64,000 nucleotides of DNA from Trypanosoma brucei (Eukaryota), in the NCBI GenBank assembly GCA_000002445.1, contig CM000208.1, forward strand, positions 2,112,001 to 2,176,000, written 5' to 3'. The first letter of the stretch is position 1. Every line of letters starts with the position of its first letter. Below, piece after piece: positions 14,760 to 54,284 of this stretch. The translations under genes were made by a program, and so were the position numbers. The notes below the pieces were generated by a model, which had not been told where the DNA came from, ran no database searches, and saw only the letters and a list, made by a program, of their open reading frames with translations.

Positions 14760-17700
14760 ATGAAGGCAGCGCAACCCGTTGTTGTGGATGTGGAAGAGAC
14801 ATTTGACAGCGTGGCTGAGAAGTTGTGGTGTGCGTTACCCTCCGTGGCCAAATTCCACGCCACATTTGAGAAGACACCAATTCTTGGTGCTGAAAGCGGC
14901 AATGTGGGTGTAGTGCCACAGCAATCCTCCGTGGAGGACACTTCTGAGGCTGCGGCAGCAAAACTGGACCCACCCGTGACAATACGGGATGCAGTGGTTC
15001 CTGTTGATGAGATGCAACACCTCGCTGGTTGTGTCTACACGGCGTGCCACACGAATCCTGTGGACGCCGATGTGGAAGCTGCTGTCGCCGCGATTTTAGA
15101 CAAAGGGGATGAGGAAAATTCTGTCGAATACAGCTGGGGTGATTTCCGTGAGTTTCTGGAGCGTGTCGAGTCGCAGTGGATGGAGTGGGCCGACATGGAC
15201 CAGAAGTGGCTGGCAGTCACGGAAAGACAGCACATTCAGGTACTGAAGGACTTGTTAGAGTCGATAACTTATGATGTAGAACCTTTTGGACTGCTGCCAC
15301 GTGACAAAGTTCTTACGATGCGTTCCACTATTGTTCACACGAAGCAGCTGCGGACTCTATTTAAGACTTTCGTTGATTTTGTGTCTCCTCCTGAGTACCC
15401 GGCGGTTTATGACAAGCTGTGGGGGCTGCTTATCGCATCTCAAAACGGCTGTGAAGTTGCGGAAGTGAGCCCAGAAACCCCTCTTGAGCTGAACTCTTTC
15501 ACTAAATTCGTTCTGTGGTTTTGCCTTTCGATATTCGTAAACGCCACGGAAGCAGGATTAGTTGTGGCTGCCAAGACGTTGTGGCTCAGGCACCTCAACG
15601 AGCGAGGTGTTATGTTAAAAAAACAGTTTGTGGATGTGTGTCGCTACATGTGTAAGTTTTACAGTGTTGGTGGAAGTGATGTAGAATATTTTGAAAAATG
15701 TTGTGCCCGCAGTGAAGAAGCTCTACAGGGCTCAGACGAACTTCCCCCATTCGCACTTTTCCAACAGTACATGCAGCCCACAGAAGGCCGCATGCTGGTC
15801 GACCCGAACGATCTCTACATTCCAGAAGAGCTCGAGCGGAGTAAATGGATGGAGGAACTTTACCGCATGAATTGCAGTTCCAACCGCATTATTGTTCATG
15901 GCCGGCGGGGTGTTGGAAAGTCACATCTGGCGGCTTCCTTGGCGAAACGGTTGGGTTGCGTTCACTTGGATGCTGGAGAGCTCGCCCTCGAAGCAGAAGC
16001 TGCAGCTCCGGCCGATCCACTCGGGGCACAGTTACGTGAATGCACGGATGCAGATGCCCCCATTTCGCTCGCAACCCTCGCAGCACTTGTACGCAAGAAG
16101 ATATGTAGCAGCGAAACACGGTATAGGGGTTATGTGTTCAGCGATATTCCATTTTTTTCTAGCGAGAATGACGCGGAGAAAATCAGTTTTTTTACCGATT
16201 GTGGTCTTTTGGATGAACTTGTGCCCACCACATTTGTGCTGGTGGATTGTGAAAACGAGTTTCACCCCGAACGACTTGAGGCTACACTGGCGGCACGGGA
16301 GTCAGACCACCAGGAAGAACTGAGTCTTTTGAAAGAGGAGAAAGAAGAGGAAGCTTCTTACGAGGCACTGGCGCAAAAAATTGAGGAGTTGAAGGCGACA
16401 TTGTCGCAAATTACTACAAAACAGGAGGTGGAGGGTGGTGCGGAGGCACCGGAAGGCGAGGAAGCGAACGCTCCGGAGCTGGATCCCGAGGAGGTTGAGA
16501 AGGACTTGAAACAGTTACTTGAGGATCAAACTGTACAAGAAGAGAGGAAGATTGAGCAGGCTGATTCCCGCATCGCCCGTACCAAGAAGTATAGGGAATT
16601 GAGATTAAGGAGGCTCGTTGCGCAAACTCTCTCCGAGGGATACGAAAGCGGTAATGAAATGTCTCTGACAGCATTGCCATGTTTCGAGACCGCTCTCTGT
16701 CGTGCCCGCTTGATGGGTCGGTGTTTGACGGTTGACTGTGCTTCCGTTGCGGAGGAGGCTGTTACCTACATTGTGGACACGCTGTCATTACAACCCTGCG
16801 TCAGACCCTGGGCCCTTGTTGACAAGGTGGAACGGGACCCCGAAAGGGAAGGAAGCGTATTTGATGACCCGGATATCGAGCGTCTCACGGAGGAGTTTGC
16901 CACCAACTTCGGTGTAATGACCTCAAGTCGGTGGAAGCGTTTCTGCCCTGTGACATTTGCTGAACATGGCGTCTTGGTAGAGGGCTCCATAGCTTTCGGA
17001 TGTGTGTTTCGGCAGCAGCTCTTTTACCTCGCATCCGAGGAAAAGCTTTCAATGTTTAGGGCAAACCCATGCCTCTATCTTGGTACACTTCCGCTGAGTA
17101 GGGAACCAATACTTCTTCTTTCCCTTGTTGAACCTCAGAATGATGCGCAACTTTCACCCACTGATATGCAAATATTGGTACGGAAACTGCACGAGCAACT
17201 GGATCTAACTCCCATGGCCTTTAGTGAGTTCACTACCCTTTGGGACAGTCACCGGTTGTTGAAGGGGAAGCGTGCAGAAGTGTTGTCAAATAGAACAAAG
17301 TATGAAGTTGTTGAGCGAAAGCAGCGTGCTGATCGGCTGAAGAAGCGTTTGGCGCAAGAGAAGCGAAAGAAGAAGTCTCAGAAGAGTCCTGGAAAAGGTA
17401 AGGGCAAGAAAGCTAAGTCTGTTGTGGAAGAAGTCACCGTAGAGGAATACAAGGGGTGGGAGAAGAAGGCGGAGGCACCGGAGACTATTGCCACACGCAT
17501 CGCGAAAAATTTGGAAGAGAGGCTTGAACGCCAGAATACACTTGTCCCCGTTTTGGTGCACGCGTTGGACGACAACCCCCTTAGTGGGTTCGATCAATTG
17601 TTTTCAGAGAAGGTCGTACCTCGCACAGTGGTCGTACTGCAGTATGAGAAACCGACGAAGGCGGAGGATAGTGCGGTGCTGGAACCGTCAGCAGCTGAAG

Positions 17701-20700
17701 GGGTGGAGGAAAATAGCGGCGAAGTTCCAAAGGTTCTTCTCCCGCAAGAGGTCGTGCTGGATAAGTTGTCAGACCTTCCGGACGGTGGTGTCGATATCGT
17801 GGCTGAGGTGTCACCTCATGACGTCGCCATTCACCGTATTGTCGTTAATGACAAGGATGTGCACGCGTTAGTCACGGAAATCATGCAAGCTGTATGCCCT
17901 GGTATGGACCCTGTTGGGGTGGGCGTTGTTGATGATGCGGTGGGTGAGGATGATGAGGAAGATGCACAGGAGTTTGATGATGATGAAAACGAGGAGGATG
18001 ATGTACCAACCGCAGTCAACCCCGCCATCAAACCAGGAAAAACGTTCCTAAACCAGTTTGGTACCACGTTGGAGTTTTGTCCGGTGACTCTTTGCGAAAG
18101 GAGACTCTTAGTACGAGGCCAGAGTGATCACTGTCTGCAGTATCGAGGTTACGTGTACACATTTGCTTCACTGGAGGCGAAAACAAAGTTTGAGTTCAAC
18201 CCCCTTCGCTACATGCGTTCCTCGTATTCGCTTCCCCCATGTCGCATGTGGATCGTTGGTCAGTCGAAAAGTGGTAAGAAGACCCTTGCACAATCACTCC
18301 ACGAAGCCTACGACGTGCCGTATTTCCAATACAATAGGAAGTTGTTTGACCAGTGCGTTGAAGTCGCTATGACTCCCACAGGTGGCGTGATTAGCAATAT
18401 TTTTATCCCACCGCAGACTTTTGACAATCCTTATCTTGCATTAGCCGCGGGGATCTTAAAAGAGGTGCAGGAGTTTGACCCAGAACAGGAGCGGCGCATG
18501 AAGTTGCGTGAGGAAGCTGAGCGAGAGCTGGAGCGACGCGAGGAGGCGGCAAACAATGGGGATGAAGAGGAGGATGAACTCGACGAAGAGGCCGAAGCGC
18601 GGTTGCAGGAACATTTGGCATTCGAGCCTGAAACTGAGCATGACCGTCAGTTGCGGCTAAGTGAGGCATACCTGAAGGTTGCGGGTTGTGTAACGCACAT
18701 AGAGCCTTTCGCTTCGAAGGGTTACATCATGGTGTGCCCTCCCTTTTCTGACGGTGATATAGAGGTTCTATCATCCGTGGACGCTATTCCTGAGGTTACA
18801 GTGAATATGGAGGTTTCGGATGAAATCTATATTAAACGTAACAAGGAGGCGATGAGCAGCGTAAGTTATTCTGAAATGTCATCAGGTGGTATACCAGAAG
18901 TCCGTGAGGAGCCCGTGGTTAATGAAGAAGCCAAACTTTTGAGGAGGTTAGAGTATGAAGATAGGCGGAAGGAGCGTGAAGTGGCCAGGTGGCGCCGTCG
19001 CCACATTGGCGCAGATGACCCGGAGTCAGACATAGACGAGGAGCTCGGGGACGAAGGAGCTGCTGGAGGTGGGAACGATGAAAGCCAAGAGGATGAAGCT
19101 AATGAGCGTCCATTTGATCAAGATTTGATCGTGGAAAAAGAAGCCGTTGGAGAATTTGCGGAAGCTGTTGAGGAGCGTTCAATCCCGATGATCGTACTCA
19201 ATGGCGATCTCTCCCGGAATGCCGTTTTTCGCAGGGCGGTCCGTCGGTTGAGTAGGTTTTTAGAAAATCGTCGCTCCCTTTTGCACGCCCCGCAAATTGT
19301 GCGGTATGAGGATGCCACTCGGATGCTCGAGTCAGGCGAGGCAACCCTGTCATGCTTCGGCAGCACCGATCCCGTGACGCTGTATGACCTCAGACACGGA
19401 AGTAGGCGTGTATGCAAATGGAGGCCGGATGGTGCATATCTGGAGGAGGAACCTTTGATAGAACCTGACTCGTCTTCTTCCGACGCCCAGGGGACAGCAG
19501 TTCCTGAAGGAAGTGAGGGTAAAGATGAATCAGAAGACACTCTCGACTCCGGCGATAGAAAGCCAGAGCCCCCTCAGTTAGACACGTCTTCCACGGAGGG
19601 AGACACTGAAAGTGGTGACGATGAGGAGATGAGTGAGCTGGATTCAGAGTTACTGGATGAAATCACCGAAAAATTCGCTAATCGACGTCGACGTGAATGG
19701 CTTCGTACATGCCAGCGTGTGGCCCTCCTCCATGGCCGTTTATTCTTCTTCGAGAGTGATGAAACGCTCTTACGCTACATGCAGAATCCTCTTCTTTTCA
19801 TTCAACAGCCTCCGCCACAGCCTCCACTACGGAGCATGCCCGTGATTACATTTTATGACGATGACGGTGCGTATCCCCCTGAGAATAGCGGGCCGTCGAG
19901 GAAGCGATGTACCGCTGAGCACGTAGCCTTCAATCTAAACTGGATTTATCTTTCTCTTCCGAAGCTCCTCTCCTGGAGCGCAGTAAATGCTTCCTTGCTT
20001 TCTTTGTCGAGAAAAGCTATTGATGCTGTTCTTAGCGGTTCTGTGGATGATGCTTTGGTGGCCCGGTTGCTAGGTCATCGACTCAATGCGGCTGATGCTA
20101 AGCAGAACGGCGTTGTGCTCCACAACTTGCCGAGGACCCCCGACCAATACCGTCTGCTTTTGGCGTGGGGACTTAAGGTGGACAAAATATTTCAGTTTGA
20201 TGACAATTACAGGGACGTTGCGACCCTAATGAAGTCAACGGCCACCATTGAGAAGCAACTGACGACAGCTCGAGTATCTGTCGCCGGTCTCTCTGAAATT
20301 TGCGACTGTATTGATGGTTTCGTCGTCAACGAGGGTCGTGCAATTTTATCTCACCTAACGGGGTTCCCTATAGATATAGACAATTCATACCACACGGTAG
20401 CCGATATTGAAACGCATCTCTCACCATATCGCTGGTTCTGCCCTTACAGTTGGTGTTTGGGTGAAAACCTTGTGGACCAGGAGAAGGCTGACTGCCGTTT
20501 CGCGGCTTTGTACGATGGCCAGTACTACTTTTTTTCTTCTGAGGAGTACCTCGAGAGGTTTCTTCTGTGTCCCTCGCAGGTGACGCTTCCACCCGGATTC
20601 AAAGCCCTCCCGACCCCTCTTCCCGTGCGGGTACAACCCAGCACAGAATATGCGTTCGAGTTGGAGGGATGCTGTCCTGTTCTCTTATACGATACACGGG

Positions 20701-21269
20701 AAAACCGAGGCCTTCGTGGTGTATTGGAACCTGTGGCAAGGAAAGGTAACCCGTCTTGCATTGTTGAGTATGGCGGTTGCTACTACGCCTTACTTGATGA
20801 GGAAGCAGTCCGAAGGTTCCTCATGCGTCCATGGCAATATGTGGACGGAGCGAAGTTGCCGCCCTCGCGGAAGGTGCCACTACCGGAAGGTAAGACGATG
20901 TCTACCATTGATGAAGAGGAGTTCATCCGCCGTATACTTTACGACCCTGTTGCGCACGCTCTGATAGCCGTGGCGGAGGTGCGCCCAAAGTACTACGGGC
21001 TTTCGCTGGAAGAGTCTGCGCTAAAGTATATTGCCCTTCACATGAAATGCTTTAATCCCAAGAATAGTGAGATACAAGCCAAGCAGTACAAGAAGAAGTT
21101 TGAAATTTTCAGCAAGCAATCTACATTGTACAAAACTATAACGATGCATTCCAACAGTATTACGCAGAATGAAAAGTTTGCAGAGCTTTGCGATGAGTGG
21201 GAGAATTCCAAGTATGGCCGCGAAAAGGAGCTTTCAATACACTGCGGTTGTGAGACCGAGCCTGTTTGA
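14760..21269 (+). CDS. giant multi-domain protein with degenerate adenylate-kinase-like P-loop modules and four YHS/TRASH-like Cys-Pro repeats; possibly flagellar
   Basis: This is an uninterrupted 2169-aa ORF. P-loop 1 is RIIVHGRRGVGKSHLAASLAKRLGCVHLDAGEL...GYVFSDIP (nt about 15900-16150). P-loop 2 is MWIVGQSKSGKKTLAQSL (nt about 18245-18300). An AK-like NMP/LID remnant, GVVLHNLPRTPDQYRLLLAWGLKVDKIFQFDD, lies at nt about 20110-20200. There are four repeats of about 45 aa: FCPVTFAEHG...YLASEEKLSMFRANP, FCPVTLCERR...YTFASLEAKTKFEFNP, FCPYSWCLGE...YFFSSEEYLERFLLCP and CCPVLLYDTR...YYALLDEEAVRRFLMRP. Long Glu/Asp-rich tracts are also present. Confidence 0.85.
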   Translation: MKAAQPVVVDVEETFDSVAEKLWCALPSVAKFHATFEKTPILGAESGNVGVVPQQSSVEDTSEAAAAKLDPPVTIRDAVVPVDEMQHLAGCVYTACHTNPVDADVEAAVAAILDKGDEENSVEYSWGDFREFLERVESQWMEWADMDQKWLAVTERQHIQVLKDLLESITYDVEPFGLLPRDKVLTMRSTIVHTKQLRTLFKTFVDFVSPPEYPAVYDKLWGLLIASQNGCEVAEVSPETPLELNSFTKFVLWFCLSIFVNATEAGLVVAAKTLWLRHLNERGVMLKKQFVDVCRYMCKFYSVGGSDVEYFEKCCARSEEALQGSDELPPFALFQQYMQPTEGRMLVDPNDLYIPEELERSKWMEELYRMNCSSNRIIVHGRRGVGKSHLAASLAKRLGCVHLDAGELALEAEAAAPADPLGAQLRECTDADAPISLATLAALVRKKICSSETRYRGYVFSDIPFFSSENDAEKISFFTDCGLLDELVPTTFVLVDCENEFHPERLEATLAARESDHQEELSLLKEEKEEEASYEALAQKIEELKATLSQITTKQEVEGGAEAPEGEEANAPELDPEEVEKDLKQLLEDQTVQEERKIEQADSRIARTKKYRELRLRRLVAQTLSEGYESGNEMSLTALPCFETALCRARLMGRCLTVDCASVAEEAVTYIVDTLSLQPCVRPWALVDKVERDPEREGSVFDDPDIERLTEEFATNFGVMTSSRWKRFCPVTFAEHGVLVEGSIAFGCVFRQQLFYLASEEKLSMFRANPCLYLGTLPLSREPILLLSLVEPQNDAQLSPTDMQILVRKLHEQLDLTPMAFSEFTTLWDSHRLLKGKRAEVLSNRTKYEVVERKQRADRLKKRLAQEKRKKKSQKSPGKGKGKKAKSVVEEVTVEEYKGWEKKAEAPETIATRIAKNLEERLERQNTLVPVLVHALDDNPLSGFDQLFSEKVVPRTVVVLQYEKPTKAEDSAVLEPSAAEGVEENSGEVPKVLLPQEVVLDKLSDLPDGGVDIVAEVSPHDVAIHRIVVNDKDVHALVTEIMQAVCPGMDPVGVGVVDDAVGEDDEEDAQEFDDDENEEDDVPTAVNPAIKPGKTFLNQFGTTLEFCPVTLCERRLLVRGQSDHCLQYRGYVYTFASLEAKTKFEFNPLRYMRSSYSLPPCRMWIVGQSKSGKKTLAQSLHEAYDVPYFQYNRKLFDQCVEVAMTPTGGVISNIFIPPQTFDNPYLALAAGILKEVQEFDPEQERRMKLREEAERELERREEAANNGDEEEDELDEEAEARLQEHLAFEPETEHDRQLRLSEAYLKVAGCVTHIEPFASKGYIMVCPPFSDGDIEVLSSVDAIPEVTVNMEVSDEIYIKRNKEAMSSVSYSEMSSGGIPEVREEPVVNEEAKLLRRLEYEDRRKEREVARWRRRHIGADDPESDIDEELGDEGAAGGGNDESQEDEANERPFDQDLIVEKEAVGEFAEAVEERSIPMIVLNGDLSRNAVFRRAVRRLSRFLENRRSLLHAPQIVRYEDATRMLESGEATLSCFGSTDPVTLYDLRHGSRRVCKWRPDGAYLEEEPLIEPDSSSSDAQGTAVPEGSEGKDESEDTLDSGDRKPEPPQLDTSSTEGDTESGDDEEMSELDSELLDEITEKFANRRRREWLRTCQRVALLHGRLFFFESDETLLRYMQNPLLFIQQPPPQPPLRSMPVITFYDDDGAYPPENSGPSRKRCTAEHVAFNLNWIYLSLPKLLSWSAVNASLLSLSRKAIDAVLSGSVDDALVARLLGHRLNAADAKQNGVVLHNLPRTPDQYRLLLAWGLKVDKIFQFDDNYRDVATLMKSTATIEKQLTTARVSVAGLSEICDCIDGFVVNEGRAILSHLTGFPIDIDNSYHTVADIETHLSPYRWFCPYSWCLGENLVDQEKADCRFAALYDGQYYFFSSEEYLERFLLCPSQVTLPPGFKALPTPLPVRVQPSTEYAFELEGCCPVLLYDTRENRGLRGVLEPVARKGNPSCIVEYGGCYYALLDEEAVRRFLMRPWQYVDGAKLPPSRKVPLPEGKTMSTIDEEEFIRRILYDPVAHALIAVAEVRPKYYGLSLEESALKYIALHMKCFNPKNSEIQAKQYKKKFEIFSKQSTLYKTITMHSNSITQNEKFAELCDEWENSKYGREKELSIHCGCETEPV

Positions 21270-33429: not shown

Positions 33430-35187
33430 ATGGTATTCGACAAAGAGTTGAGGAATGCTGATAACTGGCGCCTTTACCACCTTTTAGAGTTGGAGCCACC
33501 AGTGACAGCAAAGCAGGTGCAATGGCTCTTCCGCAAGGTGACGTTACGCCACCACTTCTACCAGGCATATAATATACTGCGTGATGAGGAGCGGAAGAGC
33601 CTTTATGATTCACTGGGTGAAAACTTTGTTGGCTACCTTAACAGTGGCAGCTGGGGACCACTTATTCAACTACTCGGCGCTAAGGCAACAGTAGCCGTCT
33701 GCTGCGGCGTATGGGTTCTGATGATTCTGCTCATGTTGTTCTTTTTCTTGGCTGTTGGCGCCCGTGCGGATCGTCTTATCACGTGGACGTGGATGCAGGT
33801 GGCTGCTCCCGGTTTGACAGTAACTCTCATTGTGCTTATCGCGACGGCAGTGGCCATGGCGGTTAGCTTTTTCCTACGGCAGCCGAAAGAGGAAGGCATG
33901 CGATTCGTGGACCGTATTCCTGCGATCGGTAATTTTGTCGCTGCCTTCTTCTACTGCATCTTTGCCTTCATTGGGGCGTCAACGGTGGACAGTTATGCAC
34001 CTCAGCGGCATAACAACTACGCGCCATACTTTGCTTTGCCTATCCTGGCTGATGTCATATATTATCTTTCTACCATGGTGTGGCGGTGGCCCCGCAACCG
34101 GCGTCTGGACCTGGAGGTTGGCATGCAGGAGTCTAAACCCATCTTGTGGTATGCTCCGTGCGTGTTCGCCGGTCTTCACATCATTTTGTCAATCGTCCAA
34201 TGGGTCCTCCTTGCGCAGCGTGTTGACCGTATAATTAAAATCAGTTGGTACGCTGCCGCAAGCCCTATTGCCGTCCGTGCTGTGGTACGTGTTGCTGAAT
34301 CATGTATGACCAGTTTGGCGCGGCGTGCCATTGGTATTAAGAGCGTATTGGGCGTTGTCTTTGACACCTTAGGCTCTTTGTTCTTCAATGGTTTATTGCT
34401 TTGCTCCGTGTTCTTTACAGCAGCCCGCTTTGTTCGCGGGAGGAGGGTGGTTCCCCTGATTCTCGTCTTTTTACCGGTATACTTGGTGCTATTTTATCTG
34501 CTTTTCTGCACTATATACACGCTTTTTTACCTCCTGAGGAGAATCACGGAGAATGCGCGTGAGGAGCGGATGAATAACCTCAAGTGGACTCCTGTGGAGC
34601 CTCAGGCCGGCGACAAGGTGGTTCCGACGTTGCTGCGTGACTTTGATGCCTCTGAACGCATCATTTGGGATGACATTGATGATGAGAGCACTATGCAATA
34701 TTCCACCGGGTATGATGAAGTTACATTTGAAACTGAGGGTTATGATGACTATGAAACTGGTGAGGAGGAGGAGGAAGAGGAGGAAGAGGAATTATTTGCA
34801 CGAGGCGCTATGGTTTCTGGTTCCTCCGCACCTCAAACTGCACCTGCGCATCAGCGCAACGTTCCTTTATCACGTCAAGAAAGCGAATTGGTAATTGATG
34901 ATGATCACTCTGTGGTTACAATTGAGAGCAGTGAAGAGCAGCCCGTGAGGCGTCATCATGCATACCACGATCCCTATGAGTCAAGAACTGGCACAGGATT
35001 AGTAGGCCCACAAAGTGAAACGGAGTACACTCAATATGATACTAATAACGACGCTTATGAAGTGGGTGATACAAATTTAGAATCTGAATGCGCCTCCTCC
35101 GATACTTCCAGTAGTTTTGAAGCCTCCGGGACGGCTCATTCTGAAAGGCATCAGGACCCACCTTCTGAAAATGTGCGACGAAATTAG
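33430..35187 (+). CDS. multi-pass membrane protein with an N-terminal J-like (DnaJ-like, HPD-less) domain and an acidic C-terminal tail
   Basis: This is a 585-aa ORF. The N-terminal region LYHLLELEPPVTAKQVQWLFRKVTLRHHFYQAYNILRDEERKSLYD aligns with J-domain helices II-IV, but HPD is replaced by RHH. About 8 hydrophobic segments follow. The C-terminus contains the tract GEEEEEEEEEE. Confidence 0.7.
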   Translation: MVFDKELRNADNWRLYHLLELEPPVTAKQVQWLFRKVTLRHHFYQAYNILRDEERKSLYDSLGENFVGYLNSGSWGPLIQLLGAKATVAVCCGVWVLMILLMLFFFLAVGARADRLITWTWMQVAAPGLTVTLIVLIATAVAMAVSFFLRQPKEEGMRFVDRIPAIGNFVAAFFYCIFAFIGASTVDSYAPQRHNNYAPYFALPILADVIYYLSTMVWRWPRNRRLDLEVGMQESKPILWYAPCVFAGLHIILSIVQWVLLAQRVDRIIKISWYAAASPIAVRAVVRVAESCMTSLARRAIGIKSVLGVVFDTLGSLFFNGLLLCSVFFTAARFVRGRRVVPLILVFLPVYLVLFYLLFCTIYTLFYLLRRITENAREERMNNLKWTPVEPQAGDKVVPTLLRDFDASERIIWDDIDDESTMQYSTGYDEVTFETEGYDDYETGEEEEEEEEEELFARGAMVSGSSAPQTAPAHQRNVPLSRQESELVIDDDHSVVTIESSEEQPVRRHHAYHDPYESRTGTGLVGPQSETEYTQYDTNNDAYEVGDTNLESECASSDTSSSFEASGTAHSERHQDPPSENVRRN

Positions 35188-36009
35188 GAGTGACGCATCG
35201 TTTTCCCCTTTCTTTCCTTACAAAAGTGATAGAGAAGAGGAGGGAAAGGGTTGTTAAAAAATGAGTGTTGCGAAGTTATATCACATTCCATCAAAGGAGT
35301 GAGGGATCATTAGAATCATGCTTTAGTGATGGATCCCTTTCTACTTATTCAGCGAATATCTATATGTATATGAATACGTTTTTGTGTGTGCTTTCGTCGC
35401 TTATTATTGCGCAGTATTGCAACTTTCCTTCTTTTTTTTTTTCCATTGGTTTGTGTTGCTTCAGTGCTGCGTTAAGATGTGAAGCGATGAATGCTCAGAT
35501 GGCGGATAAGTTGTTGAGAAGTGTGAAAGCAAAGGCAAACTAAAAAAAAAAACAATAACAATAATATGAAATGCGTTGGTCTGGAGGTTACGCTTTATGT
35601 TCTGTCGGTTCTTCATCATTAGCATGAGGAGAAGTGAAGTAGCGGAAGAGGAAAAATAAAGAAATATTTGAGAGACGCGCATGCACTTGCAGGTATGTTA
35701 TTAATATGTGTTTGAAGGGATGATGTGGGGAGGGGAGATACGAGTGTCTATGTACAGTTAGTGCGAAAACAACGTCAGATGGTATTTATTTTTCTTTTTT
35801 TCCTCTCTTTTTTATCGCTCTTCTTTTGGAGGGAGAACATACGGCGATGGTGTATTTGTTCGTCTCTCTCTCTTTTTTTTTTTTTAAATCCCCTTCTTCT
35901 CTTCATCTTTTATGCAAGGACGCCTCAGCGATGTGTTAGTTTGTGTTGTCTTTTGTGCATTATTGTTGGGGCGAATTCATTTTCATACGTTTTTAGAGGG
36001 ACTAGAGGA

Positions 36010-36041
36010 ATCATCATCGTTATCATCATCATCATCATCAT
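36010..36041. repeat. (ATC)n trinucleotide repeat
   Basis: Direct reading shows atcatcgttatcatcatcatcatcatcat. Confidence 0.85.
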
Positions 36042-37352
36042 TTGTTTACATATATAAATACAAATACAAATATATTTGTCGAGATGCCTACGAGTGATGT
36101 GAAGTGATGAAAGGCTAAGAAAAGGAAAATAAAGAAAGGAAGAGAAGGAAAGAAGGAATGAATGAATGCGTTGCAAAGGCAAACAAAAGGAAGAATGGGA
36201 CGAAGGAAGTGACATTGATTTAGCTCCACAGCGAGTGTTTGTACGTTTGTGGCTTTTTCTTGGTGTTTCTCCATTCTTCTCTATTTTTCTTTTTTATGCT
36301 CATTTTCTTCTTTTTGTTATGCTTTGTTACGTTATTTTGCGTTACTTATATTTTTGTTGTTGTTGTTCGAAAAAAGATAAGAAAATCAACTTCACGGGTT
36401 AAGTTTCATTTTTATTTTCTTTCTGCGAATCTCCGTGCATGGCGTGAGGAGCTACCGAGTGGTGAGTAATTTACCTCCGGATTTGTTTTTACCGCGCCAG
36501 AGGGAGAATTGAGGCGGGGGGAAAATATTCGAATCGTCAGAATGAGAGGAGGGAAGTTAAGAGGGAGGCGATGAAAAATAAGAAGGGCAGCATCAAAACA
36601 AAAAAAAAGAGAAGAGAAATAAAATAAACAAAAATAATTAAAAGGAGAAAGGGGGAAAAAAATGAAAAGCAAAGGATTTGGGAGGAGGCTTGCTTATTTT
36701 TATATTTTTTCAGCTAGACTTCGACGGATGATAATATTGGTGCCATCATTGCCATATATGTGGTAGTGGTGCCTCTGTTCCATTTTGCGTGTAGATGATT
36801 GTGAATTTGAAAAGAAAAAAAGACGATGCGATGCAACACGTTTAGAGGTCTTTTTCTTTTCTTTCTTTTTTTTTTTGTGGCGTCATGCTATTTTCCATTT
36901 TCTTTCCAAGTTGATGCAATGGAAAGCGGATGCGGTGGAGAATTTCTCCCCTGTTTTTTTTGTTTTTTTATATCGCAGGGTGTGGTGTGTTGCTCGTCTT
37001 CCCCTTTAGTATTGTTTTGTTTCCAGTGAACGAAGCAGTAGCGGGGGGGGGGAGAGAAGCGAAAAAAAAGACATTGAAAAAAAACAATAATTGGTCTAAT
37101 CTGCTTTATTGTTTTTTTTATTTTGTTGTGAAATCATCATTTAACCGCTGCATTCAAATTCCTTGCACTTTTGTTTTCTTCATTCCGTCTTTTCTTCTCC
37201 ATTCCTTTGGGCTTACATCCCATCCTGTTTTTTTTTAACTCGTTTAATTGTGTCAGAGGGTACTTGTGGAGGATATGATGGGAATGTAAACATGCAGATG
37301 GCAAGAAAAGGGAGTACTACAGATTTCTGACAAATAAATATATATAAGTATA

Positions 37353-37360
<8 letters not shown>

Positions 37361-37398
<38 letters not shown>

Positions 37399-37416
37399 TT
37401 ATTTATTTATTTATTT
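37361..37416. repeat. (AT)17 immediately followed by (TTTA)5 compound microsatellite
   Basis: Direct reading shows atatatat...atat followed by ttatttatttatttatttattt. Confidence 0.9.
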
Positions 37417-37838
37417 GCGTAAATATCAATGATGTAAAATCATTTAATAAATGTGGTGAAAATAATTCCAGTCCTGTGGAGGAAAAGAAAAAAAAAGAGA
37501 TGAATTTAGGTGATGTAGAAGTTCTGAGGGAAGGAAAGAAGGGAAGGTTTGGAATGATGGAAAAGGAAGAGAGAAAGAAAGGAAATTGAACGAGAGAAAG
37601 AGGAACAGTTAGAGTTTTTTTTTTTTTCAGAAGAAAAAGGAGAAGAGGATGTTGAAGCGATTGTTAAAAGTGTATATATATATATATTTATGTATTACAC
37701 CCCAGTCACTTTGGACTTTCAATACTGTTGCATTGTGCTTATTCATTCGCTGCCATTACGTAGTGGTTTCATACTTGCTTTAATATACTGCCATCCCCCT
37801 CTGTTTTTCTTTTCTCTCACCCCCCTTTCTGGTTGCTC

Positions 37839-37842
<4 letters not shown>

Positions 37843-37870
<28 letters not shown>
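37843..37870. repeat. (TA)14 microsatellite
   Basis: Direct reading; a shorter (TA)8 lies at 37673-37688. Confidence 0.9.
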
Positions 37871-37873
<3 letters not shown>

Positions 37874-38088
37874 CAAACATTTCTATTTCTATGTGCGATT
37901 CCATCGTGACGTTCAGCGCAATCAGTTCACGAGTGGTAGCTGACTACCGCAACCCCTTTTTTTGTTGCACGACTCATTTAGTGTTTGAATTGCATTTCCC
38001 CCCCTTTGTGTGTGTATGTGTCATGTCATTTACCCATTTGTATCCTTTTCTTTTTGTTTTTAATGCTTCCCTCCCCCCGGTCTCATAA

Positions 38089-39855: not shown

Positions 39856-41613
39856 ATGCCCGTCCATGCCCATGCCATGTGGAATTCTCTTTGCTTCTAC
39901 AAGGCGTATTTACCACCAGAGGACACCGTAAGGGCAACTGGCTACGTGGTATTGGCTCTGGAGGAACCGGAAGAGGAGGTTTCGCCGGTACCGCGTGAGA
40001 ACTCAAACGAGAGGGGCGTATCGCCATCGCTGTCGCATTTGGATTGGCCAGATGATGGCGCTTTATTTCCAGGGGACCGATTGACCGCCGGCGCAGCGAC
40101 GAACAGCTCCCAGCTAAGCGATTTACCACCATCCCATGAGAGGTCAGTGATGGATAGGGACACCAAACTTCAGTTTTTTCTTTTCCGAAAGGAAGACGTC
40201 TCGCCGCCGTATATGAAGGGGATGCTCGGTAAAATACGTCATTGTTTTTTGCTCTGTTTGCAAGGCGATCGTGGGAACCCATGCCACTGCCACAGGGCAC
40301 ACCTTTTGAACGAAGATGCCTGGCGTTTGAAGCTCAGTTCATTTGATTTTTCAACTCTGTGTGTGTCATCCAACTTTTCGTTACGGTACATAGACGTCAC
40401 TCACGTCCGTCCGACCGCGGGGTTTTTGTTCACCTGTGGTCTGCTTCACGAGCGAATCATTGTCGCGGCGCAACCTATTCTCTGCCGCTACAATGACAAG
40501 TGCCGCTACGGTTCGCAGTGCCTTTTCGTTCATGCTGACATTGGTGGTGACAATCTCACAAAAACGACAGCCGCCACCCCCCTGAGAAATTTGTTGCCCC
40601 CACAGGAGGGTCTCGACACTTTTTTGGCTCAGTTGGAGGAGGTGGAGCTCCAAACTGTAGGGGATGTGCAACGGCTGAGCACAAAGGCATTTGACGCTTT
40701 TGTCGGCGGATGTGAACCACAATGGACCCCATTATGGCTAAACATATCTATTTTCCGTGAAATTCAACCCAAGGCATCGCTGGAAAGTGTGCTAATTTCT
40801 TTTCCTGGTGTTACTGCGCCGGTAGTTCTGCCGCCAAATCTGACAAACGTACTTTCGTTGTTGGACATGTCTCAGAAAGATTTCTACAAACTGAAACTCA
40901 CCATCAATGTACAGGCAGCGTGCGAAAAGATACGGGCCCGCTTTTGGTCTAGCAGAGATTACAGGACGTTAGACCTCAAAAGGGAAGGTGCGAAATCCTT
41001 TTTCACGAACATCACTTTAGAAATTTTACAGTTTCGATCAACAATGGCGGACTGTAGTTGGCGCAAGAAGGATCCAATGCGGCAGGTGGTGACCTCGCTG
41101 ATGACGTACGTGGATCACAAGAAGTGTCACTGCAATGTCACTTGCGGGAGCCGAAGGCACTGGTCGATGCATAAGCCAGCACTATCTTCCAACGGAAATG
41201 GGATGAGTAATGCCACATTTCCCGACCATTCCTGGTGTACATGTCCGCGTTCTACTGTGATGGCTGTCAACTATGAGCTCAGCACACCCAGCGGCTCTCG
41301 ATGCTCGGAGCAAAATGCACTGGGTAAATTGGCATCCATGGGCCTCCCCACATGTGCTGTACGGGAAGTATTTGTGCATGGGGAACATCAGGGATCAAAA
41401 AAGGACCCTAATCCGTTGTTTCCATGCGGTGTCTGTGAGAATATGTTGCGGAAGGTTGCCCACGATGTATTGGAAATTCATGGTGGAGACGTTATGTTGT
41501 ACATGTACGACTCCACTCACAACCCCAAGAGACTTGTTTATCTTCCCATAACCGAAATTTCTTATAGAGACGACATGGGGTTTAGGGAGTTTGTGGCGGA
41601 TCTTCATGAGTAG
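39856..41613 (+). CDS. putative CCCH zinc-knuckle protein with a C-terminal cytidine/dCMP-deaminase-like zinc motif
   Basis: This is a 585-aa ORF. A C-x5-C-x5-C-x3-H motif, LCRYNDKCRYGSQCLFVHAD, is at nt about 40480-40540. The C-terminal region SRCSEQNALGKLASMG...(38 aa)...PCGVCENMLRKV (nt about 41293-41450) matches the deaminase-superfamily zinc signature C/H-[AS]-E-x2-A-[LI] followed by PCxxC. The start codon is uncertain because the 39856 ATG sits inside a polypyrimidine tract and the next in-frame Met is at about 40150. Confidence 0.65.
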   Translation: MPVHAHAMWNSLCFYKAYLPPEDTVRATGYVVLALEEPEEEVSPVPRENSNERGVSPSLSHLDWPDDGALFPGDRLTAGAATNSSQLSDLPPSHERSVMDRDTKLQFFLFRKEDVSPPYMKGMLGKIRHCFLLCLQGDRGNPCHCHRAHLLNEDAWRLKLSSFDFSTLCVSSNFSLRYIDVTHVRPTAGFLFTCGLLHERIIVAAQPILCRYNDKCRYGSQCLFVHADIGGDNLTKTTAATPLRNLLPPQEGLDTFLAQLEEVELQTVGDVQRLSTKAFDAFVGGCEPQWTPLWLNISIFREIQPKASLESVLISFPGVTAPVVLPPNLTNVLSLLDMSQKDFYKLKLTINVQAACEKIRARFWSSRDYRTLDLKREGAKSFFTNITLEILQFRSTMADCSWRKKDPMRQVVTSLMTYVDHKKCHCNVTCGSRRHWSMHKPALSSNGNGMSNATFPDHSWCTCPRSTVMAVNYELSTPSGSRCSEQNALGKLASMGLPTCAVREVFVHGEHQGSKKDPNPLFPCGVCENMLRKVAHDVLEIHGGDVMLYMYDSTHNPKRLVYLPITEISYRDDMGFREFVADLHE

Positions 41614-45373: not shown

Positions 45374-46240
45374 ATGTCATCGCTTGCCGAGAGACTCGTG
45401 CAACAGTTGCTGAAATTTCATCAACGTGGAGCTGAGCTCGAACAGGAGCAGAAGACGCTTGCGGAGGAGGAGAAATGCAACCAAACTCTCCAGGAACGCC
45501 TCAAACAAATGCAAGAACAAGTGCAGAAGGTGCGGGAAATTCGTGCGGTACTTAACGAACACAACCGTGCGGCGGAGGAAAAGTATGAGCAGGCAATAAA
45601 AGATGATGAGGCAAAGCGGGCGCTGATGTCAGAGGAATTGCAGGCAACTTTATCAGAGGTGAATTCATATGCAGAGGAAATTGCGCACATGGAAGCAAAA
45701 GCAGCGCAAGAGAATAAGCTACTGAAGGAACAACTTGAGATATACACCAGATTTCACTTGGATGGGCAGGACAAATACAATGAAATCATGCGTTCCAGGG
45801 AGCAGGAATACGCCAAGTTGGAGGCGAAGAAGGAAGCGGACGCCGCCCGGAAACCGCAGCTTCTGGCCGAATTATCGGAAGAGAATGAGCGTTTCCTTCA
45901 AACTCGCAAGGAGGAAAAGGAACTTGAAGTTCTAATGGATGGTTGGGTGGCACGTGTAACGGAGCTTCAAGAAAGGTTTTTAAAAGCAAGAAGGTTCTTT
46001 GAAAGTTTTAAGGAAGAAAAGGAAAGACATGTGAAGCGGATTCGATCACTTGAAAGTGAAAAAACCGTGTTGTTGGCGCGGGTGGAAAGATGTAGAGCAG
46101 AGCGTGACAAGGAGCAAGCAAAGGCGAAGGCATTCGAGGAAAAGGTCATCACACAAAAGAAACAGATAGAGAAACTTAGTGCCGTTGCACACATGCTCGA
46201 GTCCGGAAGCTTAGCAGAGAGTACGGATGCGGCAACATAG
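45374..46240 (+). CDS. coiled-coil protein, hypothetical
   Basis: This is a 288-aa ORF that is almost entirely charged heptad-type sequence (EQEQKTLAEEEKCNQTLQERLKQMQEQVQKVREIRAV...). It sits after a polypyrimidine-rich upstream region (45100-45260). Confidence 0.65.
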   Translation: MSSLAERLVQQLLKFHQRGAELEQEQKTLAEEEKCNQTLQERLKQMQEQVQKVREIRAVLNEHNRAAEEKYEQAIKDDEAKRALMSEELQATLSEVNSYAEEIAHMEAKAAQENKLLKEQLEIYTRFHLDGQDKYNEIMRSREQEYAKLEAKKEADAARKPQLLAELSEENERFLQTRKEEKELEVLMDGWVARVTELQERFLKARRFFESFKEEKERHVKRIRSLESEKTVLLARVERCRAERDKEQAKAKAFEEKVITQKKQIEKLSAVAHMLESGSLAESTDAAT

Positions 46241-52985: not shown

Positions 52986-54284
52986 ATGAACGCGCCTCAC
53001 AGAACTCCCGGCAGCAATTCCGCTGGGAATACCGGCCCCGGGTCACACCGGTCCCGCTGCATTAGTTTAGATCCACGGGTTCATGAACACATTCCACCGC
53101 ATTTCCTACCGAATTTGGCCAAATACAAATATAGCGGTAGTGACTCTGGCATAATTTCGAACTATGTCATGCAGCCATACTGGAACTTTATCGTAAGTCT
53201 TGTTCCCATGACTGTCGCGCCCAACGCCATTACCGTCACGGGGTTTGTGATGTGCCTCTCTTCTGCGCTTTTGGTTATGTTCTTTTACTACTTCGGAAAT
53301 GCCGAGTATCCTTGTTGGGTGTGGCTGTATGCCGTCATATGCCTTTTTGCGTACCAGACACTTGATGCAATAGATGGAAAACAGGCCCGTCGTACTAATA
53401 CGGGGTCACCACTTGGTGAATTGTTTGACCATGGGTGTGACGTCATATTAACACCTTTTGTACAAATGATGATATGCTGTGCTCTAAATACGCCTCCCTG
53501 TGTTACCTTTGTGTACATCACACTCTCATCATGCGCAGTCTTTGGTGCCATCTGGGAGCAGTTTGTCACCGGTACACTTGACTTCGGTTACGTCAATGGT
53601 CCCACTGACGGCATATTGCTCGCGTGCGGTATTTTTCTCATCACAGCCATCATGTCACCAGCCGTGTGGGATACTCAAGTGGCTGGACCTTACGAGGTGC
53701 CGTTGCCGTCATGGTTAGGCAGTTGCGGTGGCTCGTTCGTGATTGGATCAGTGCGGAGTATGTTATTTACCTTTTATGTGGTATCTGGGACTCTGACACT
53801 GCTAACAAACATATTGCATGTTTTAAAAAGGCCAAACATTCAGAAACCTGGTATGGCCGTGACAACTGCCCTACCGGTTGTCTGCTTGCTGGTACTTCAC
53901 GTCTGGATGTATCTGGTTTACCGCCCCATCCATGAGAAGTATCCATATGCACTGGAGTTGAGTTTTCACGTTTTGATATCTTACACTGCCACACGCATGA
54001 CTGTTTCCAGGTTGTGCGCAATGCCGTTTAACCTTTTCAGTGGGTTGTTTATCATTACACTACTCTTCACTGTTGCTCCGCTCTTCATCCACACCTACTT
54101 GCCTCTTGCTGAGGAAAAATATGTATTGCCATCACTTGGCTCCGCCACAGTGGCGCTTGCAGTACTGGGGTTCTGGCAGTACTTCCATATGATTCTTTCC
54201 GTTATCACACAGATGGCGTACTTTCTTCGCATTTCGGTTTTTTCTATTACATCGCGTCATGACTCCAACACGAAGTGGGAGTAG
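52986..54284 (+). CDS. CDP-alcohol phosphotransferase (choline/ethanolamine phosphotransferase, CEPT/EPT-type)
   Basis: This is a 432-aa ORF. The family signature D-G-x2-A-R-x8-G-x3-G-x3-D-x3-D is present as DAIDGKQARRTNTGSPLGELFDHGCD (nt about 53366-53443). Eight to ten hydrophobic segments are typical of CPT1/EPT1. The upstream sequence is a poly-T tract (52955-52968) followed by AG. Confidence 0.9.
   Translation: MNAPHRTPGSNSAGNTGPGSHRSRCISLDPRVHEHIPPHFLPNLAKYKYSGSDSGIISNYVMQPYWNFIVSLVPMTVAPNAITVTGFVMCLSSALLVMFFYYFGNAEYPCWVWLYAVICLFAYQTLDAIDGKQARRTNTGSPLGELFDHGCDVILTPFVQMMICCALNTPPCVTFVYITLSSCAVFGAIWEQFVTGTLDFGYVNGPTDGILLACGIFLITAIMSPAVWDTQVAGPYEVPLPSWLGSCGGSFVIGSVRSMLFTFYVVSGTLTLLTNILHVLKRPNIQKPGMAVTTALPVVCLLVLHVWMYLVYRPIHEKYPYALELSFHVLISYTATRMTVSRLCAMPFNLFSGLFIITLLFTVAPLFIHTYLPLAEEKYVLPSLGSATVALAVLGFWQYFHMILSVITQMAYFLRISVFSITSRHDSNTKWE

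What the first reader, a model, noticed from the sequence alone, without database searches (positions are those of the whole stretch)
33430..33620. J-like domain lacking the HPD tripeptide at the N-terminus of a polytopic membrane protein
LYHLLELEPPVTAKQVQWLFRKVTLRHHF...YQAYNILRDEERKSLYD aligns well with J-domain helices II and IV (YEILGV...AYRKLALKYHPD...AYEVLSDPEKRAIYD). However, the Hsp70-activating HPD is replaced by RHH and helix III is shortened. J-like proteins are usually regulators, not activators, of Hsp70 (Pam16 is an example). Here the J-like domain is fused to about 8 transmembrane helices and a poly-Glu tail, which is an unusual architecture.
Basis: partly seen in the sequence, partly recalled or inferred. 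Interest (0 to 1): 0.5.

Follow-up and report, generated by a model that had tools for sequence, protein, structure and literature searches.

The report
FAZ5's relic J domain, HPD deleted
The flagged segment is a real but crippled chaperone-recruiting "J domain" at the start of FAZ5, a known trypanosome membrane protein that holds the flagellum to the cell; it lost its key Hsp70-activating loop in one ancient 14-residue deletion and probably now serves as a docking piece.

Summary
Window 33430..35187 (+) encodes a 585-aa protein with an N-terminal J-like segment (aa 12-64), eight membrane helices and an acidic tail with a 10-Glu run. It is 100% identical to T. brucei XP_823107.1 and fits FAZ5 (Tb927.10.8830). 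FAZ5 is a published flagellum-attachment-zone protein already tabulated as "Chaperone J domain".

What appears to be new:
- HPD is deleted, not substituted. One 14-residue deletion removes PD, the loop and the first half of helix III. All 29 kinetoplastid FAZ5-clade sequences share it.
- The segment is truly J-derived (hhalign 98.9%, E=1.6e-17), although Pfam DnaJ scores below threshold (22 vs 27.8 bits).
- The membrane part belongs to Pfam Tmemb_185A. N-terminal DnaJ plus Tmemb_185A, with intact HPD, is widespread in fungi and protists, so the architecture is not unusual.
- Several trypanosomatid genera keep an HPD-bearing paralogue (Leishmania J54-like). I did not check T. brucei.
- The relic is the best-conserved part of FAZ5 and is predicted to face the cytoplasm.

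Most likely it cannot activate Hsp70 and acts as a cytoplasmic docking or structural module. A Pam16-like regulatory role is not excluded. Interest is moderate to low: a known protein with a new evolutionary reading.

The parts
33430..35187 (+). FAZ5 coding sequence (585 aa, 66.7 kDa; stop at 35185-35187)
   Evidence: ORF list. 100% identical to T. brucei TREU927 XP_823107.1/EAN78279.1 on a 4.05 Mb contig. T. cruzi orthologues are named 'Flagellum attachment zone protein 5'. MW 66.66 kDa against 67 kDa published for Tb927.10.8830.
33463..33621 (+). J-like (relic J) domain, aa 12-64; the most conserved part of the protein
   Evidence: Pfam DnaJ 22 bits, below the 27.8 cut-off. hhalign 98.9%, E=1.6e-17 to canonical J domains of the same family. 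Mean conservation 0.69 against 0.50 for the TM domain and 0.28 for the tail, in 27 clade members.
33466..33483 (+). Helix I remnant (aa 13-18, WRLYHL)
   Evidence: AlphaFold model 2, DSSP H13-18. Aligns with canonical 'RLYxxLxV'.
33508..33549 (+). Helix II region (aa 27-40). Only aa 27-33 are helical in the model; aa 34-40 (FRKVTLR) form the new turn. R35, K36 and the invariant R40 are retained basic residues.
   Evidence: Basic occupancy: canonical KK 0.97/0.90 falls to 0.45/0.03 in the FAZ5 clade; RK 0.76/0.81 becomes 0.72/0.76; last Arg 0.61 becomes 1.00.
33550..33558 (+). Deletion scar (H41-H42-F43). Fourteen residues present in canonical members ('PDKxGxxxxxxFKx': PD of HPD, the loop and the first half of helix III) are missing here.
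   Evidence: Alignments all place one 13-14 residue gap here. Shared by all 29 FAZ5-clade sequences.
33550..33582 (+). Helix III remnant (aa 41-51, HHFYQAYNILR)
   Evidence: Aligns with canonical 'xxAYxVLSD'.
33586..33642 (+). Helix IV, extended (aa 53-71; 'RKSLYDSLGE' corresponds to canonical 'KRxxYDxYGE')
   Evidence: K56, Y59, D60, G63, E64 invariant.
33622..33678 (+). Clade-specific linker (aa 65-83) with conserved S72, W75, G76, G83
33679..34125 (+). Membrane repeat 1 (TM1-TM4, aa 84-232) with motif D114-x6-W121-x5-P127
   Evidence: AlphaFold helices 84-113, 121-148, 159-188, 198-219. Tmemb_185A hits in orthologues. Repeat test.
34138..34584 (+). Membrane repeat 2 (TM5-TM8, aa 237-385) with motif D266-x6-W273-x5-P279
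   Evidence: AlphaFold helices 237-265, 273-300, 306-336, 348-385. hhalign of repeat 1 against repeat 2: probability 90%, E=1.5e-6, 88 columns.
34558..34593 (+). Conserved juxtamembrane motif (aa 377-388, REERMNNLKWTP)
   Evidence: Invariant E378, R380, N382, N383, L384, K385, W386, P388 in Trypanosoma.
34600..35184 (+). Poorly conserved acidic, Ser/Thr-rich C-terminal tail (aa 391-585; 49 D/E against 12 K/R)
34762..34791 (+). Poly-Glu run (aa 445-454)

Best explanation
**Identity (shown).** The ORF is FAZ5 (Tb927.10.8830), an eight-helix membrane protein of the trypanosome flagellum attachment zone.

**Origin of the segment (shown).**
- Its first ~64 residues are a relic J domain.
- FAZ5 belongs to a widespread eukaryotic family with a canonical, HPD-bearing N-terminal J domain on a Tmemb_185A-type membrane domain.
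- On the stem of the kinetoplastid FAZ5 lineage, one 14-residue deletion removed the PD of HPD, the loop and the first half of helix III.
- What remains is a shortened helical hairpin that keeps the J-domain core residues.

**Consequence (inferred).** HPD and the start of helix III are required for a J domain to trigger ATP hydrolysis by Hsp70 (established knowledge). The relic therefore cannot act as a canonical Hsp70 activator. In several trypanosomatid genera that job can remain with an HPD-bearing paralogue (Leishmania J54-like).

**Likely present role (inferred).**
- The relic is the most strongly conserved part of FAZ5 and is predicted to face the cytoplasm together with the acidic tail.
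- The predicted external loops are only 9-14 residues long.
- I therefore infer that the relic J domain is a cytoplasmic protein-binding or structural module. It would couple the membrane domain to cell-body FAZ proteins.
- On this reading FAZ5 is a membrane anchor for the junction, not the bridge across the gap between the two membranes.
For: **Identity**
- 100% match to the T. brucei protein.
- FAZ5 names on T. cruzi orthologues.
- 66.7 kDa calculated against 67 kDa published.
- FAZ localisation, co-IP with FAZ2/FAZ4 and flagellum detachment on RNAi (PMC4406125).
- The Leishmania null mutant loses attachment (PMC6442623).

**J origin**
- hhalign 98.9%, E=1.6e-17, with a single 14-residue gap.
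- The same gap appears against PDB J domains and against the Leishmania paralogue.

**Family**
- The FAZ5 profile finds 281 proteins.
- 107 of 127 non-clade hits have HPD near the N-terminus.
- Sampled hits score DnaJ 70-91 bits plus full-length Tmemb_185A.
- Named members are early-diverging fungi and protists.

**Single loss**
- FAZ5 clade monophyletic in 100% of 200 bootstraps. All members carry the deletion, including Phytomonas and the bodonid Cryptobia borreli.

**Paralogue**
- Phytomonas, Strigomonas, Leptomonas, Novymonas and Leishmania proteins of ~580 aa have DnaJ at 76-83 bits.
- hhalign of one to FAZ5: 97.8%, E=8.5e-13, over 325 columns.
- A kinetoplastid-style metagenome contig has a FAZ5-like gene and a canonical DnaJ+Tmemb_185A gene in tandem.

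**Selection and topology**
- Conservation: J-like 0.69, TM 0.50, tail 0.28.
- K+R count 14.5 on the N-terminal side against 6.0 on the other side, in 26 of 27 sequences.

**Model and precedent**
- AlphaFold pLDDT 90.9, with helix II cut to aa 27-33.
- TbPam16/TbPam18 are J-like proteins repurposed in T. brucei, apparently independently of Hsp70 (PMC11349236).
Against: - No experiment addresses the J-like domain of FAZ5.
- Three helix II basic residues (R35, K36, invariant R40) persist, so Hsp70 docking without activation is not excluded.
- The binding partner is not identified. The FAZ2/FAZ4 co-IP does not map to this domain.
- Fold searches could not confirm a J-type fold for the 60-residue part, because only whole-chain queries were possible.
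- Topology rests on the positive-inside rule and the absence of a signal peptide, not on a dedicated predictor or experiment.
- The link XP_823107.1 = Tb927.10.8830 is inferred from mass, chromosome-size contig and orthologue names. I did not read it from a database record.
- The HPD-bearing paralogue was shown for other trypanosomatids, not for T. brucei itself.
Confidence: 0.6

Rival explanations
1. Pam16-like regulator or tether. The relic J domain still binds Hsp70 through the remaining helix II basic residues, or it pairs with the HPD-bearing paralogue as Pam16 pairs with Pam18. Either way it would hold or restrain Hsp70 activity at the site where the FAZ is assembled.
For: - R35, K36 and the invariant R40 are retained on helix II.
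- An HPD-bearing paralogue of the same family exists in trypanosomatids and lies in tandem with a FAZ5-like gene on contig L002.
- Leishmania J54 is listed as 'flagellum, glycosome' (PMC9141911).
- The Tmemb_185A module is repeatedly joined to proteostasis parts: a J domain, a RING in AtPPRT1, and CHIP-binding motifs in human TMEM185A/B.
Against: - The canonical 'KK' pair of helix II is lost (0.97/0.90 falls to 0.45/0.03).
- HPD and the first half of helix III are gone, and helix II is shortened in the model.
- The closest precedent in T. brucei (TbPam16/18) recovered no Hsp70 in pulldowns.
- No Hsp70 link to FAZ5 appears in the FAZ papers read.
- The best PDB sequence matches are DNAJA1, Sis1 and DNAJC5, not Tim16.
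Confidence: 0.2
2. Intramolecular cap only. The relic is conserved because it packs on the linker and membrane domain and is needed for folding, insertion or stability of FAZ5. It has no external partner.
For: - High pTM (0.88) and pLDDT 85-95 for the N-terminal region within the whole-chain model.
- A conserved, clade-specific linker (S72, W75, G76, G83) joins it to TM1.
Against: - Conservation of the relic exceeds that of the membrane domain it would support (0.69 against 0.50).
- I could not inspect the model coordinates for surface-exposed conserved residues.
Confidence: 0.12
3. Chance resemblance or artefact. The segment is not J-derived, or the missing HPD is a sequencing or assembly error in this strain.
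For: The direct Pfam DnaJ score is below the gathering threshold.
Against: - hhalign 98.9% against a reversed control of 0.2%.
- The same deletion is present in 29 sequences from independent genomes and transcriptomes.
- Contiguous alignments run from the J region into the membrane domain of canonical members.
Confidence: 0.02

Closest known systems
FAZ5 (Tb927.10.8830; Leishmania FAZ5)
   Same: It is this gene. The protein is identical, the mass matches, and it is a multi-pass membrane protein. The 2016 review table already lists 'Chaperone J domain' for it.
   Different: The papers read do not mention the missing HPD, the 14-residue deletion, the Tmemb_185A relationship or the HPD-bearing paralogue. 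The Leishmania JDP inventory rows I displayed contain no entry matching FAZ5's size, chromosome and 8-TM layout, and a full-text search for FAZ5 plus DnaJ did not return that paper.
DnaJ + Tmemb_185A proteins of fungi and protists, including the trypanosomatid 'dnaj chaperone-like protein' (Leishmania J54-like)
   Same: Same architecture (N-terminal J region, short linker, 8 TM in two 4-TM repeats) and demonstrable homology over both parts.
   Different: They have a full J domain with HPD (DnaJ 70-91 bits) and are usually 400-470 aa. FAZ5 has the 14-residue deletion, a clade-specific linker and a long acidic tail. None of these relatives has a known function.
Pam16/Tim16 and TbPam16/TbPam18 (J-like proteins; 'type IV' JDPs)
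   Same: Membrane-anchored J-domain homologues that lack a functional HPD. TbPam16/18 show that such proteins were repurposed in T. brucei.
   Different: - They have one TM helix and sit in the mitochondrial inner membrane.
- Their HPD is substituted (for example HSD), not deleted along with half of helix III.
- No specific sequence relationship was found; the best PDB hits were DNAJA1, Sis1 and DNAJC5.
Human TMEM185A/B and Arabidopsis PPRT1 (other Tmemb_185A proteins)
   Same: They share the Tmemb_185A membrane module. Each carries a cytosolic proteostasis-linked part: an EEVD-like CHIP-binding motif or a C3HC4 RING.
   Different: They have no J or J-like domain. They are reported at the ER or in mitochondria, not at a cell junction. 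FAZ5 ends in '...NVRRN' with no EEVD-like motif.
DNAJC22 / Drosophila Wurst (recalled from memory, not tested here)
   Same: A polytopic membrane protein that carries a J domain.
   Different: As I recall it, the J domain is C-terminal and has HPD. I did not test any relationship of its membrane part to Tmemb_185A.

Membership tests
Canonical J-domain protein (Pfam DnaJ, PF00226) | Pfam DnaJ score at or above the gathering cut-off (27.8 bits) | tested here: not met
   22 bits for aa 1-77 alone and 14 bits for the full protein. 9 of 10 orthologues hit only at E>=0.029.
Canonical J-domain protein (Pfam DnaJ, PF00226) | HPD tripeptide in the loop between helices II and III | tested here: not met
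   Absent in all 29 FAZ5-clade sequences. The loop and 14 residues are deleted.
Canonical J-domain protein (Pfam DnaJ, PF00226) | Four-helix J fold with a full helix II/III hairpin | tested here: inconclusive
Canonical J-domain protein (Pfam DnaJ, PF00226) | Stimulates Hsp70 ATPase | not testable with these tools
   Needs a biochemical assay. Loss is predicted from the absence of HPD (established knowledge).
J-like / type IV J-domain homologue | Descends from a J domain (detectable homology) | tested here: met
   hhalign 98.9%, E=1.6e-17, reversed control 0.2%. PDB DNAJA1 at E=0.0026.
J-like / type IV J-domain homologue | Lacks a functional HPD | tested here: met
Tmemb_185A (Pfam PF10269) | Pfam score at or above the gathering cut-off (23.1 bits) for this protein itself | tested here: not met
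   No PF10269 hit was reported for the T. brucei protein at E<=10.
Tmemb_185A (Pfam PF10269) | Family-level homology to PF10269 members | tested here: met
   - 8 of 10 orthologues hit PF10269; the best is 30.6 bits.
- Deeper clade members score 34.9-40.6 bits over the full profile.
- The FAZ5 profile retrieves proteins with full-length PF10269.
Tmemb_185A (Pfam PF10269) | Eight TM helices as two 4-TM repeats, each with a D-x6-W-x5-P motif after its first helix. This is a feature seen here in family consensus sequences, not Pfam's own definition. | tested here: met
   Model. hhalign of the two halves: 90%, E=1.5e-6. The motif is visible in the consensus sequences.
FAZ5 orthologue group | Sequence identity with the Tb927.10.8830 product | tested here: met
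   100% identical to XP_823107.1 on a 4.05 Mb contig. 66.7 kDa against 67 kDa published. T. cruzi orthologues are named FAZ5. The accession-to-gene-ID link itself is inferred.
FAZ5 orthologue group | Localises to the FAZ and is needed for flagellum attachment | not testable with these tools
   From the literature: PMC4406125, PMC6442623, PMC10953051.
Pam16-type regulator | Forms a complex with an HPD-bearing J partner and modulates Hsp70 | not testable with these tools
   Only the existence of an HPD-bearing paralogue in trypanosomatids is shown.

The most novel reading that the evidence does not exclude
FAZ5 is a membrane proteostasis adaptor of the Tmemb_185A family that was co-opted into a cell junction. 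That family carries a J domain, a RING or a CHIP-binding motif in different lineages. FAZ5's relic J domain would still work within the Hsp70 system. It could pair with the HPD-bearing paralogue (J54-like) in a Pam16/Pam18-style heteromer, positioning or restraining cytosolic Hsp70 at the proximal site where new FAZ is assembled.
Probability: 0.12. Interest if true: 0.6.

Novelty: new member of a known kind. Interest (0 to 1): 0.35.

Why it matters
- FAZ5 is required for flagellum attachment in T. brucei. In Leishmania it is also needed for flagellar-pocket shape, sand-fly development and pathogenicity. Yet it has been described only as having 'multiple transmembrane domains'.
- Its best-conserved part turns out to be a J domain that lost its catalytic loop in one ancient deletion. 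An intact paralogue survives in several trypanosomatid genera. Together these give a concrete domain to mutate or swap, and a testable account of how a chaperone-recruiting membrane protein became a junction component.
- The work also ties the uncharacterised Tmemb_185A family (human TMEM185A/B, plant PPRT1) to a recurring proteostasis theme.
- It adds an overlooked J-like protein to the kinetoplastid J-protein inventories.

Tried and rejected
- **Equal-length ORF.** The other 585-aa ORF at 39856..41613 is not a paralogue: no similarity, and it is a PF14421 deaminase-family protein.
- **afdb50.** The library was unavailable.
- **First structure model.** With 10 close orthologues the J-like region scored pLDDT below 50. 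It was replaced by the 85-sequence model.
- **T. brucei J-protein inventory (Bentley et al.).** It is not in the searchable library, so I could not check whether FAZ5 is listed there.
- **Sister group.** The sister group of the FAZ5 clade is unresolved in the distance tree. I do not claim which canonical member is its closest relative.
- **Remnant paralogue.** No remnant of a canonical paralogue lies next to FAZ5 in this window (tblastn).
Full report
**1. What is there**

The window reads like a kinetoplastid chromosome. All 17 long ORFs I scanned are on the + strand, intronless, and separated by pyrimidine-rich spacers.

The finding lies at the start of ORF 33430..35187 (+), 585 aa. The quoted peptide is present. 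'RHHFYQAY' is contiguous, with nothing between RHH and FYQ.

The product is 100% identical to T. brucei TREU927 XP_823107.1 / EAN78279.1 (UniRef Q38A91, 'J domain-containing protein') on a 4,054,025-bp contig. T. cruzi orthologues are named 'Flagellum attachment zone protein 5'. The calculated mass is 66.66 kDa. The FAZ review table lists Tb927.10.8830 / FAZ5 as 67 kDa with 'Chaperone J domain' (PMC4827413).

I conclude the ORF is FAZ5. The accession-to-gene-ID link is inferred, not read from a record.

**2. What is already known about FAZ5**

- It was found by immunoprecipitation with FAZ2 and FAZ4.
- It localises along the FAZ and stays with the cell-body side.
- It has 'multiple predicted transmembrane domains'.
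- Short RNAi gives loops of detached flagellum (PMC4406125).
- Leishmania FAZ5 null mutants lose attachment in the pocket neck. They have a shorter pocket and reduced endocytosis, fail to develop in sand flies, and lose pathogenicity in mice (PMC6442623; PMC10953051).
- None of these papers discusses the J domain beyond the table entry. No paper in the library holds both 'FAZ5' and 'TMEM185'. 'FAZ5' plus 'DnaJ' retrieves one paper on a Leishmania kinase cascade, with one mention of each term.

**3. Is the J similarity real?**

Direct searches are weak:
- Pfam DnaJ gives 22 bits (E=1.7e-4) for aa 1-77 and 14 bits for the whole protein. The gathering score is 27.8.
- phmmer against PDB gives the DNAJA1 J domain at E=0.0026, then Sis1 and DNAJC5.
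- A 10-sequence profile gives E=0.018.
- Every alignment shows a 13-14 residue gap right after 'LRHH'.

The family context settles it:
- A profile of aa 1-400 from ten Trypanosoma orthologues (A2), scored against 1.84 billion representative proteins, found 281 hits at E<=1e-3.
- The closest ~20 (P0020-P0039) lack HPD. They include Phytomonas and the bodonid Cryptobia borreli.
- Of the next 127, 107 have 'HPD' in a standard J domain near the N-terminus. Most of the rest are N-terminally truncated fragments.
- Sampled members score DnaJ 69-91 bits plus full-length Tmemb_185A (PF10269) at 30-90 bits.
- A profile-profile comparison of the J-like segment alone (29 clade members) against the family's canonical J domains (107 sequences) gives probability 98.9%, E=1.6e-17, over 53 columns. 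It contains one 14-residue gap opposite 'PDKxGxxxxxxFKxI'. The reversed control gives 0.2%.

So the segment is a true J-domain derivative.

**4. Anatomy of the loss**

- The alignment shows helix I ('RLYxLL'), helix II, the 'AYxVLSD' half of helix III, and helix IV ('RKxLYDxxGE'). All are retained.
- PD, the loop and the first half of helix III are absent in every clade member.
- H42 may correspond to the His of HPD in Trypanosoma, but that position is not conserved across the clade.
- With an 85-sequence alignment, AlphaFold gives a confident model: mean pLDDT 90.9, pTM 0.88, J-like region 85-95. Helices are at 13-18, 27-33, 41-51 and 53-71. Helix II is cut to about seven residues, and 'FRKVTLR' forms the new turn.
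- The Hsp70-facing basic residues of helix II are only partly eroded. The canonical 'KK' (97%/90% basic) falls to 45%/3%. 'RK' stays at 72%/76%. The Arg before the scar is invariant, against 61% in canonical members.
'Helix III is shortened' is right.

**5. The membrane part**

- 8 of 10 Trypanosoma orthologues hit Tmemb_185A; the best is 30.6 bits against a cut-off of 23.1.
- Deeper clade members hit it over the full profile.
- The T. brucei protein itself is too diverged to score.
- The model has eight long helices.
- The two halves are related: hhalign 90%, E=1.5e-6. Each has D-x6-W-x5-P after its first helix (D114/W121/P127 and D266/W273/P279).
- No solved structure resembles it beyond generic helical bundles.

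**6. Topology (inference)**

- Loops on the N-terminal side carry 14.5 K+R on average, against 6.0 on the other side, in 26 of 27 clade sequences.
- There is no signal peptide ahead of an 85-residue N-terminal domain.
- With eight helices, both the relic J domain and the acidic tail (49 D/E, 12 K/R, Glu run at aa 445-454) should be cytoplasmic.
- The external loops would be only 9-14 residues long.
- FAZ5 then has almost no extracellular mass. It is more plausibly an anchor toward the cell-body FAZ than the bridge to the flagellar membrane.

**7. Evolution**

- Named canonical members come from Mucoromycota, Glomeromycota, Zoopagomycota, Paraphysoderma, Piromyces, an oomycete (Thraustotheca), Filamoeba and many unnamed protists. 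More than 70 listed clusters carry both Pfam domains.
- In a distance tree (36 sequences, 373 columns, 200 bootstraps) the FAZ5 clade is monophyletic at 100%. Its sister group is unresolved. The deletion therefore maps to one event on the FAZ5 stem.
- Trypanosomatids also keep an HPD-bearing paralogue: ~580-aa 'dnaj chaperone-like' proteins of Phytomonas, Strigomonas, Leptomonas, Novymonas and Leishmania, with DnaJ at 76-83 bits.
- The L. enriettii paralogue aligns with FAZ5 over J and membrane regions: 97.8%, E=8.5e-13, 325 columns, with the same 14-residue gap. It has a ~110-residue insert before TM7.
- Its length and helix layout fit Leishmania J54 (LINF_330016300, 581 aa, J 3-69, 8 TM, 'flagellum, glycosome') in PMC9141911. 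That equation is probable, not proven.
- The JDP inventory rows I displayed contain no entry matching FAZ5's size, chromosome and 8-TM layout. A full-text search for FAZ5 plus DnaJ did not return that paper.
- On a 15-kb metagenome contig with dense same-strand genes (L002), a FAZ5-like HPD-less gene is immediately followed by a canonical DnaJ+Tmemb_185A gene. An upstream gene weakly matches the gene upstream of FAZ5 in this window (E=4e-7).
- This fits an origin by duplication followed by loss of HPD in one copy.

**8. Selection**

Across 27 clade members, mean column conservation is 0.69 for aa 12-64, 0.60 for the linker, 0.50 for the membrane domain and 0.28 for the tail. The relic is not decaying. 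It is the most constrained part of the protein.

**9. Mechanism**

*Shown:* identity as FAZ5; J-domain ancestry; the deletion of HPD and half of helix III; family membership; the existence of an intact paralogue; strong constraint on the relic.

*From established knowledge:* HPD and the adjoining helix III are needed to trigger Hsp70 ATP hydrolysis, so canonical activation is lost.

*Inferred:* the relic serves as a cytoplasmic docking or structural module that links the membrane domain to cell-body FAZ components.

A precedent exists in the same organism. TbPam16/TbPam18 are J-like, were repurposed for kDNA replication, and pulled down no Hsp70 (PMC11349236).

The main rival is a Pam16-style role: binding Hsp70 without activating it, or pairing with the HPD paralogue. 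The retained helix II basic residues keep it alive. So does the recurring association of Tmemb_185A with proteostasis parts: the J domain here, a RING in Arabidopsis PPRT1, and CHIP-binding EEVD-like motifs in human TMEM185A/B.

**10. Verdict**

J-like is correct. 'Unusual architecture' and ER or mitochondrial location are not supported.
- The protein and its J-domain label are already known. The new elements are the nature of the lesion, the Tmemb_185A family placement, the intact paralogue, and the strong constraint on the relic.
- This is a new member of the known class of J-like proteins. Interest is moderate to low overall, with a specific and testable hook for FAZ biology.

Noticed in passing
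window 39856..41613 (+): The 585-aa ORF is a strong member of Pfam PF14421, 'LmjF365940 subfamily CDD/CDA-like deaminase' (180 bits). The family is named after a Leishmania chromosome 36 gene, which suggests conserved synteny around FAZ5. It is unrelated to FAZ5 despite the equal length.
   Followed up: partly
P0013 (T. b. gambiense DAL972 XP_011778246.1) against window 33430..33723: The T. b. gambiense annotation of this gene is 488 aa and starts at the residue matching Met98 of FAZ5. It therefore omits the whole J-like domain and part of TM1. UniRef calls it 'T. brucei spp.-specific protein'. This is probably a start-codon mis-annotation or a local sequence problem. I did not resolve which.
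   Followed up: partly
N-termini of FAZ5 orthologues (P0004-P0009, P0020, P0021, P0026, P0029) against window 33430..33441: Many orthologues begin MGC.., MCC.. or MGCC... That looks like a myristoylation or palmitoylation signal and would fit a cytosolic N-terminus. T. brucei (MVFD) and T. congolense (MISD) lack it.
   Followed up: partly
L002 8001..9782 and 10135..11445: On a 15.3-kb metagenome contig (ENA ERZ19398298 scaffold_6158) with kinetoplastid-style gene packing, an HPD-less FAZ5-like gene and a canonical DnaJ+Tmemb_185A gene sit in tandem. The source organism is unknown.
   Followed up: partly
window 33679..34584 (FAZ5 aa 84-385): The Tmemb_185A-type membrane domain is an internal duplication of two 4-TM units. 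Each has a D-x6-W-x5-P motif (hhalign 90%, E=1.5e-6). The fold has no solved-structure relative.
   Followed up: yes
literature: human TMEM185A/B, Arabidopsis AT1G68820: The Tmemb_185A module is joined to different proteostasis-linked cytosolic parts in different lineages. These are a J domain in fungi and protists, a C3HC4 RING in AtPPRT1, and an EEVD-like CHIP-binding motif in human TMEM185A/B.
   Followed up: partly
window 35188..38088: There is an unusually long (~2.9 kb) AT-rich spacer downstream of FAZ5; GC is 0.35 over 36001-38000. It holds (ATC)n, (ATAT)n and (TA)n microsatellites. tblastn found no remnant of a Tmemb_185A paralogue there.
   Followed up: partly
window 14760..21269 (+): A 2169-aa ORF has an adenylate-kinase/AAA-like region (aa ~377-521) and a short FAP206/YHS-like match at aa ~1104-1153. 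It may be a flagellar protein.
   Followed up: no
window 9267..10289 and 12626..13882 (+): Two RabGAP-TBC domain genes (188 and 216 bits) lie about 2.3 kb apart with one unannotated ORF between them.
   Followed up: no
window 2611..4278, 5693..7282, 45374..46240, 52986..54284 (+): Other neighbours: a TPR protein, an ABC1 atypical kinase (170 bits), a taxilin-like coiled-coil protein and a CDP-alcohol phosphatidyltransferase. Nine further long ORFs, including 57866..62860 (1664 aa), have no Pfam match.
   Followed up: no
PMC9141911, Table 1 (Leishmania J11, LINF_040012900): Leishmania J11 (576 aa, J domain 9-75, eight TM helices from residue 90, 'ciliary pocket') has the same layout as J54. It may be a third family member in trypanosomatids. 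I did not test this.
   Followed up: no
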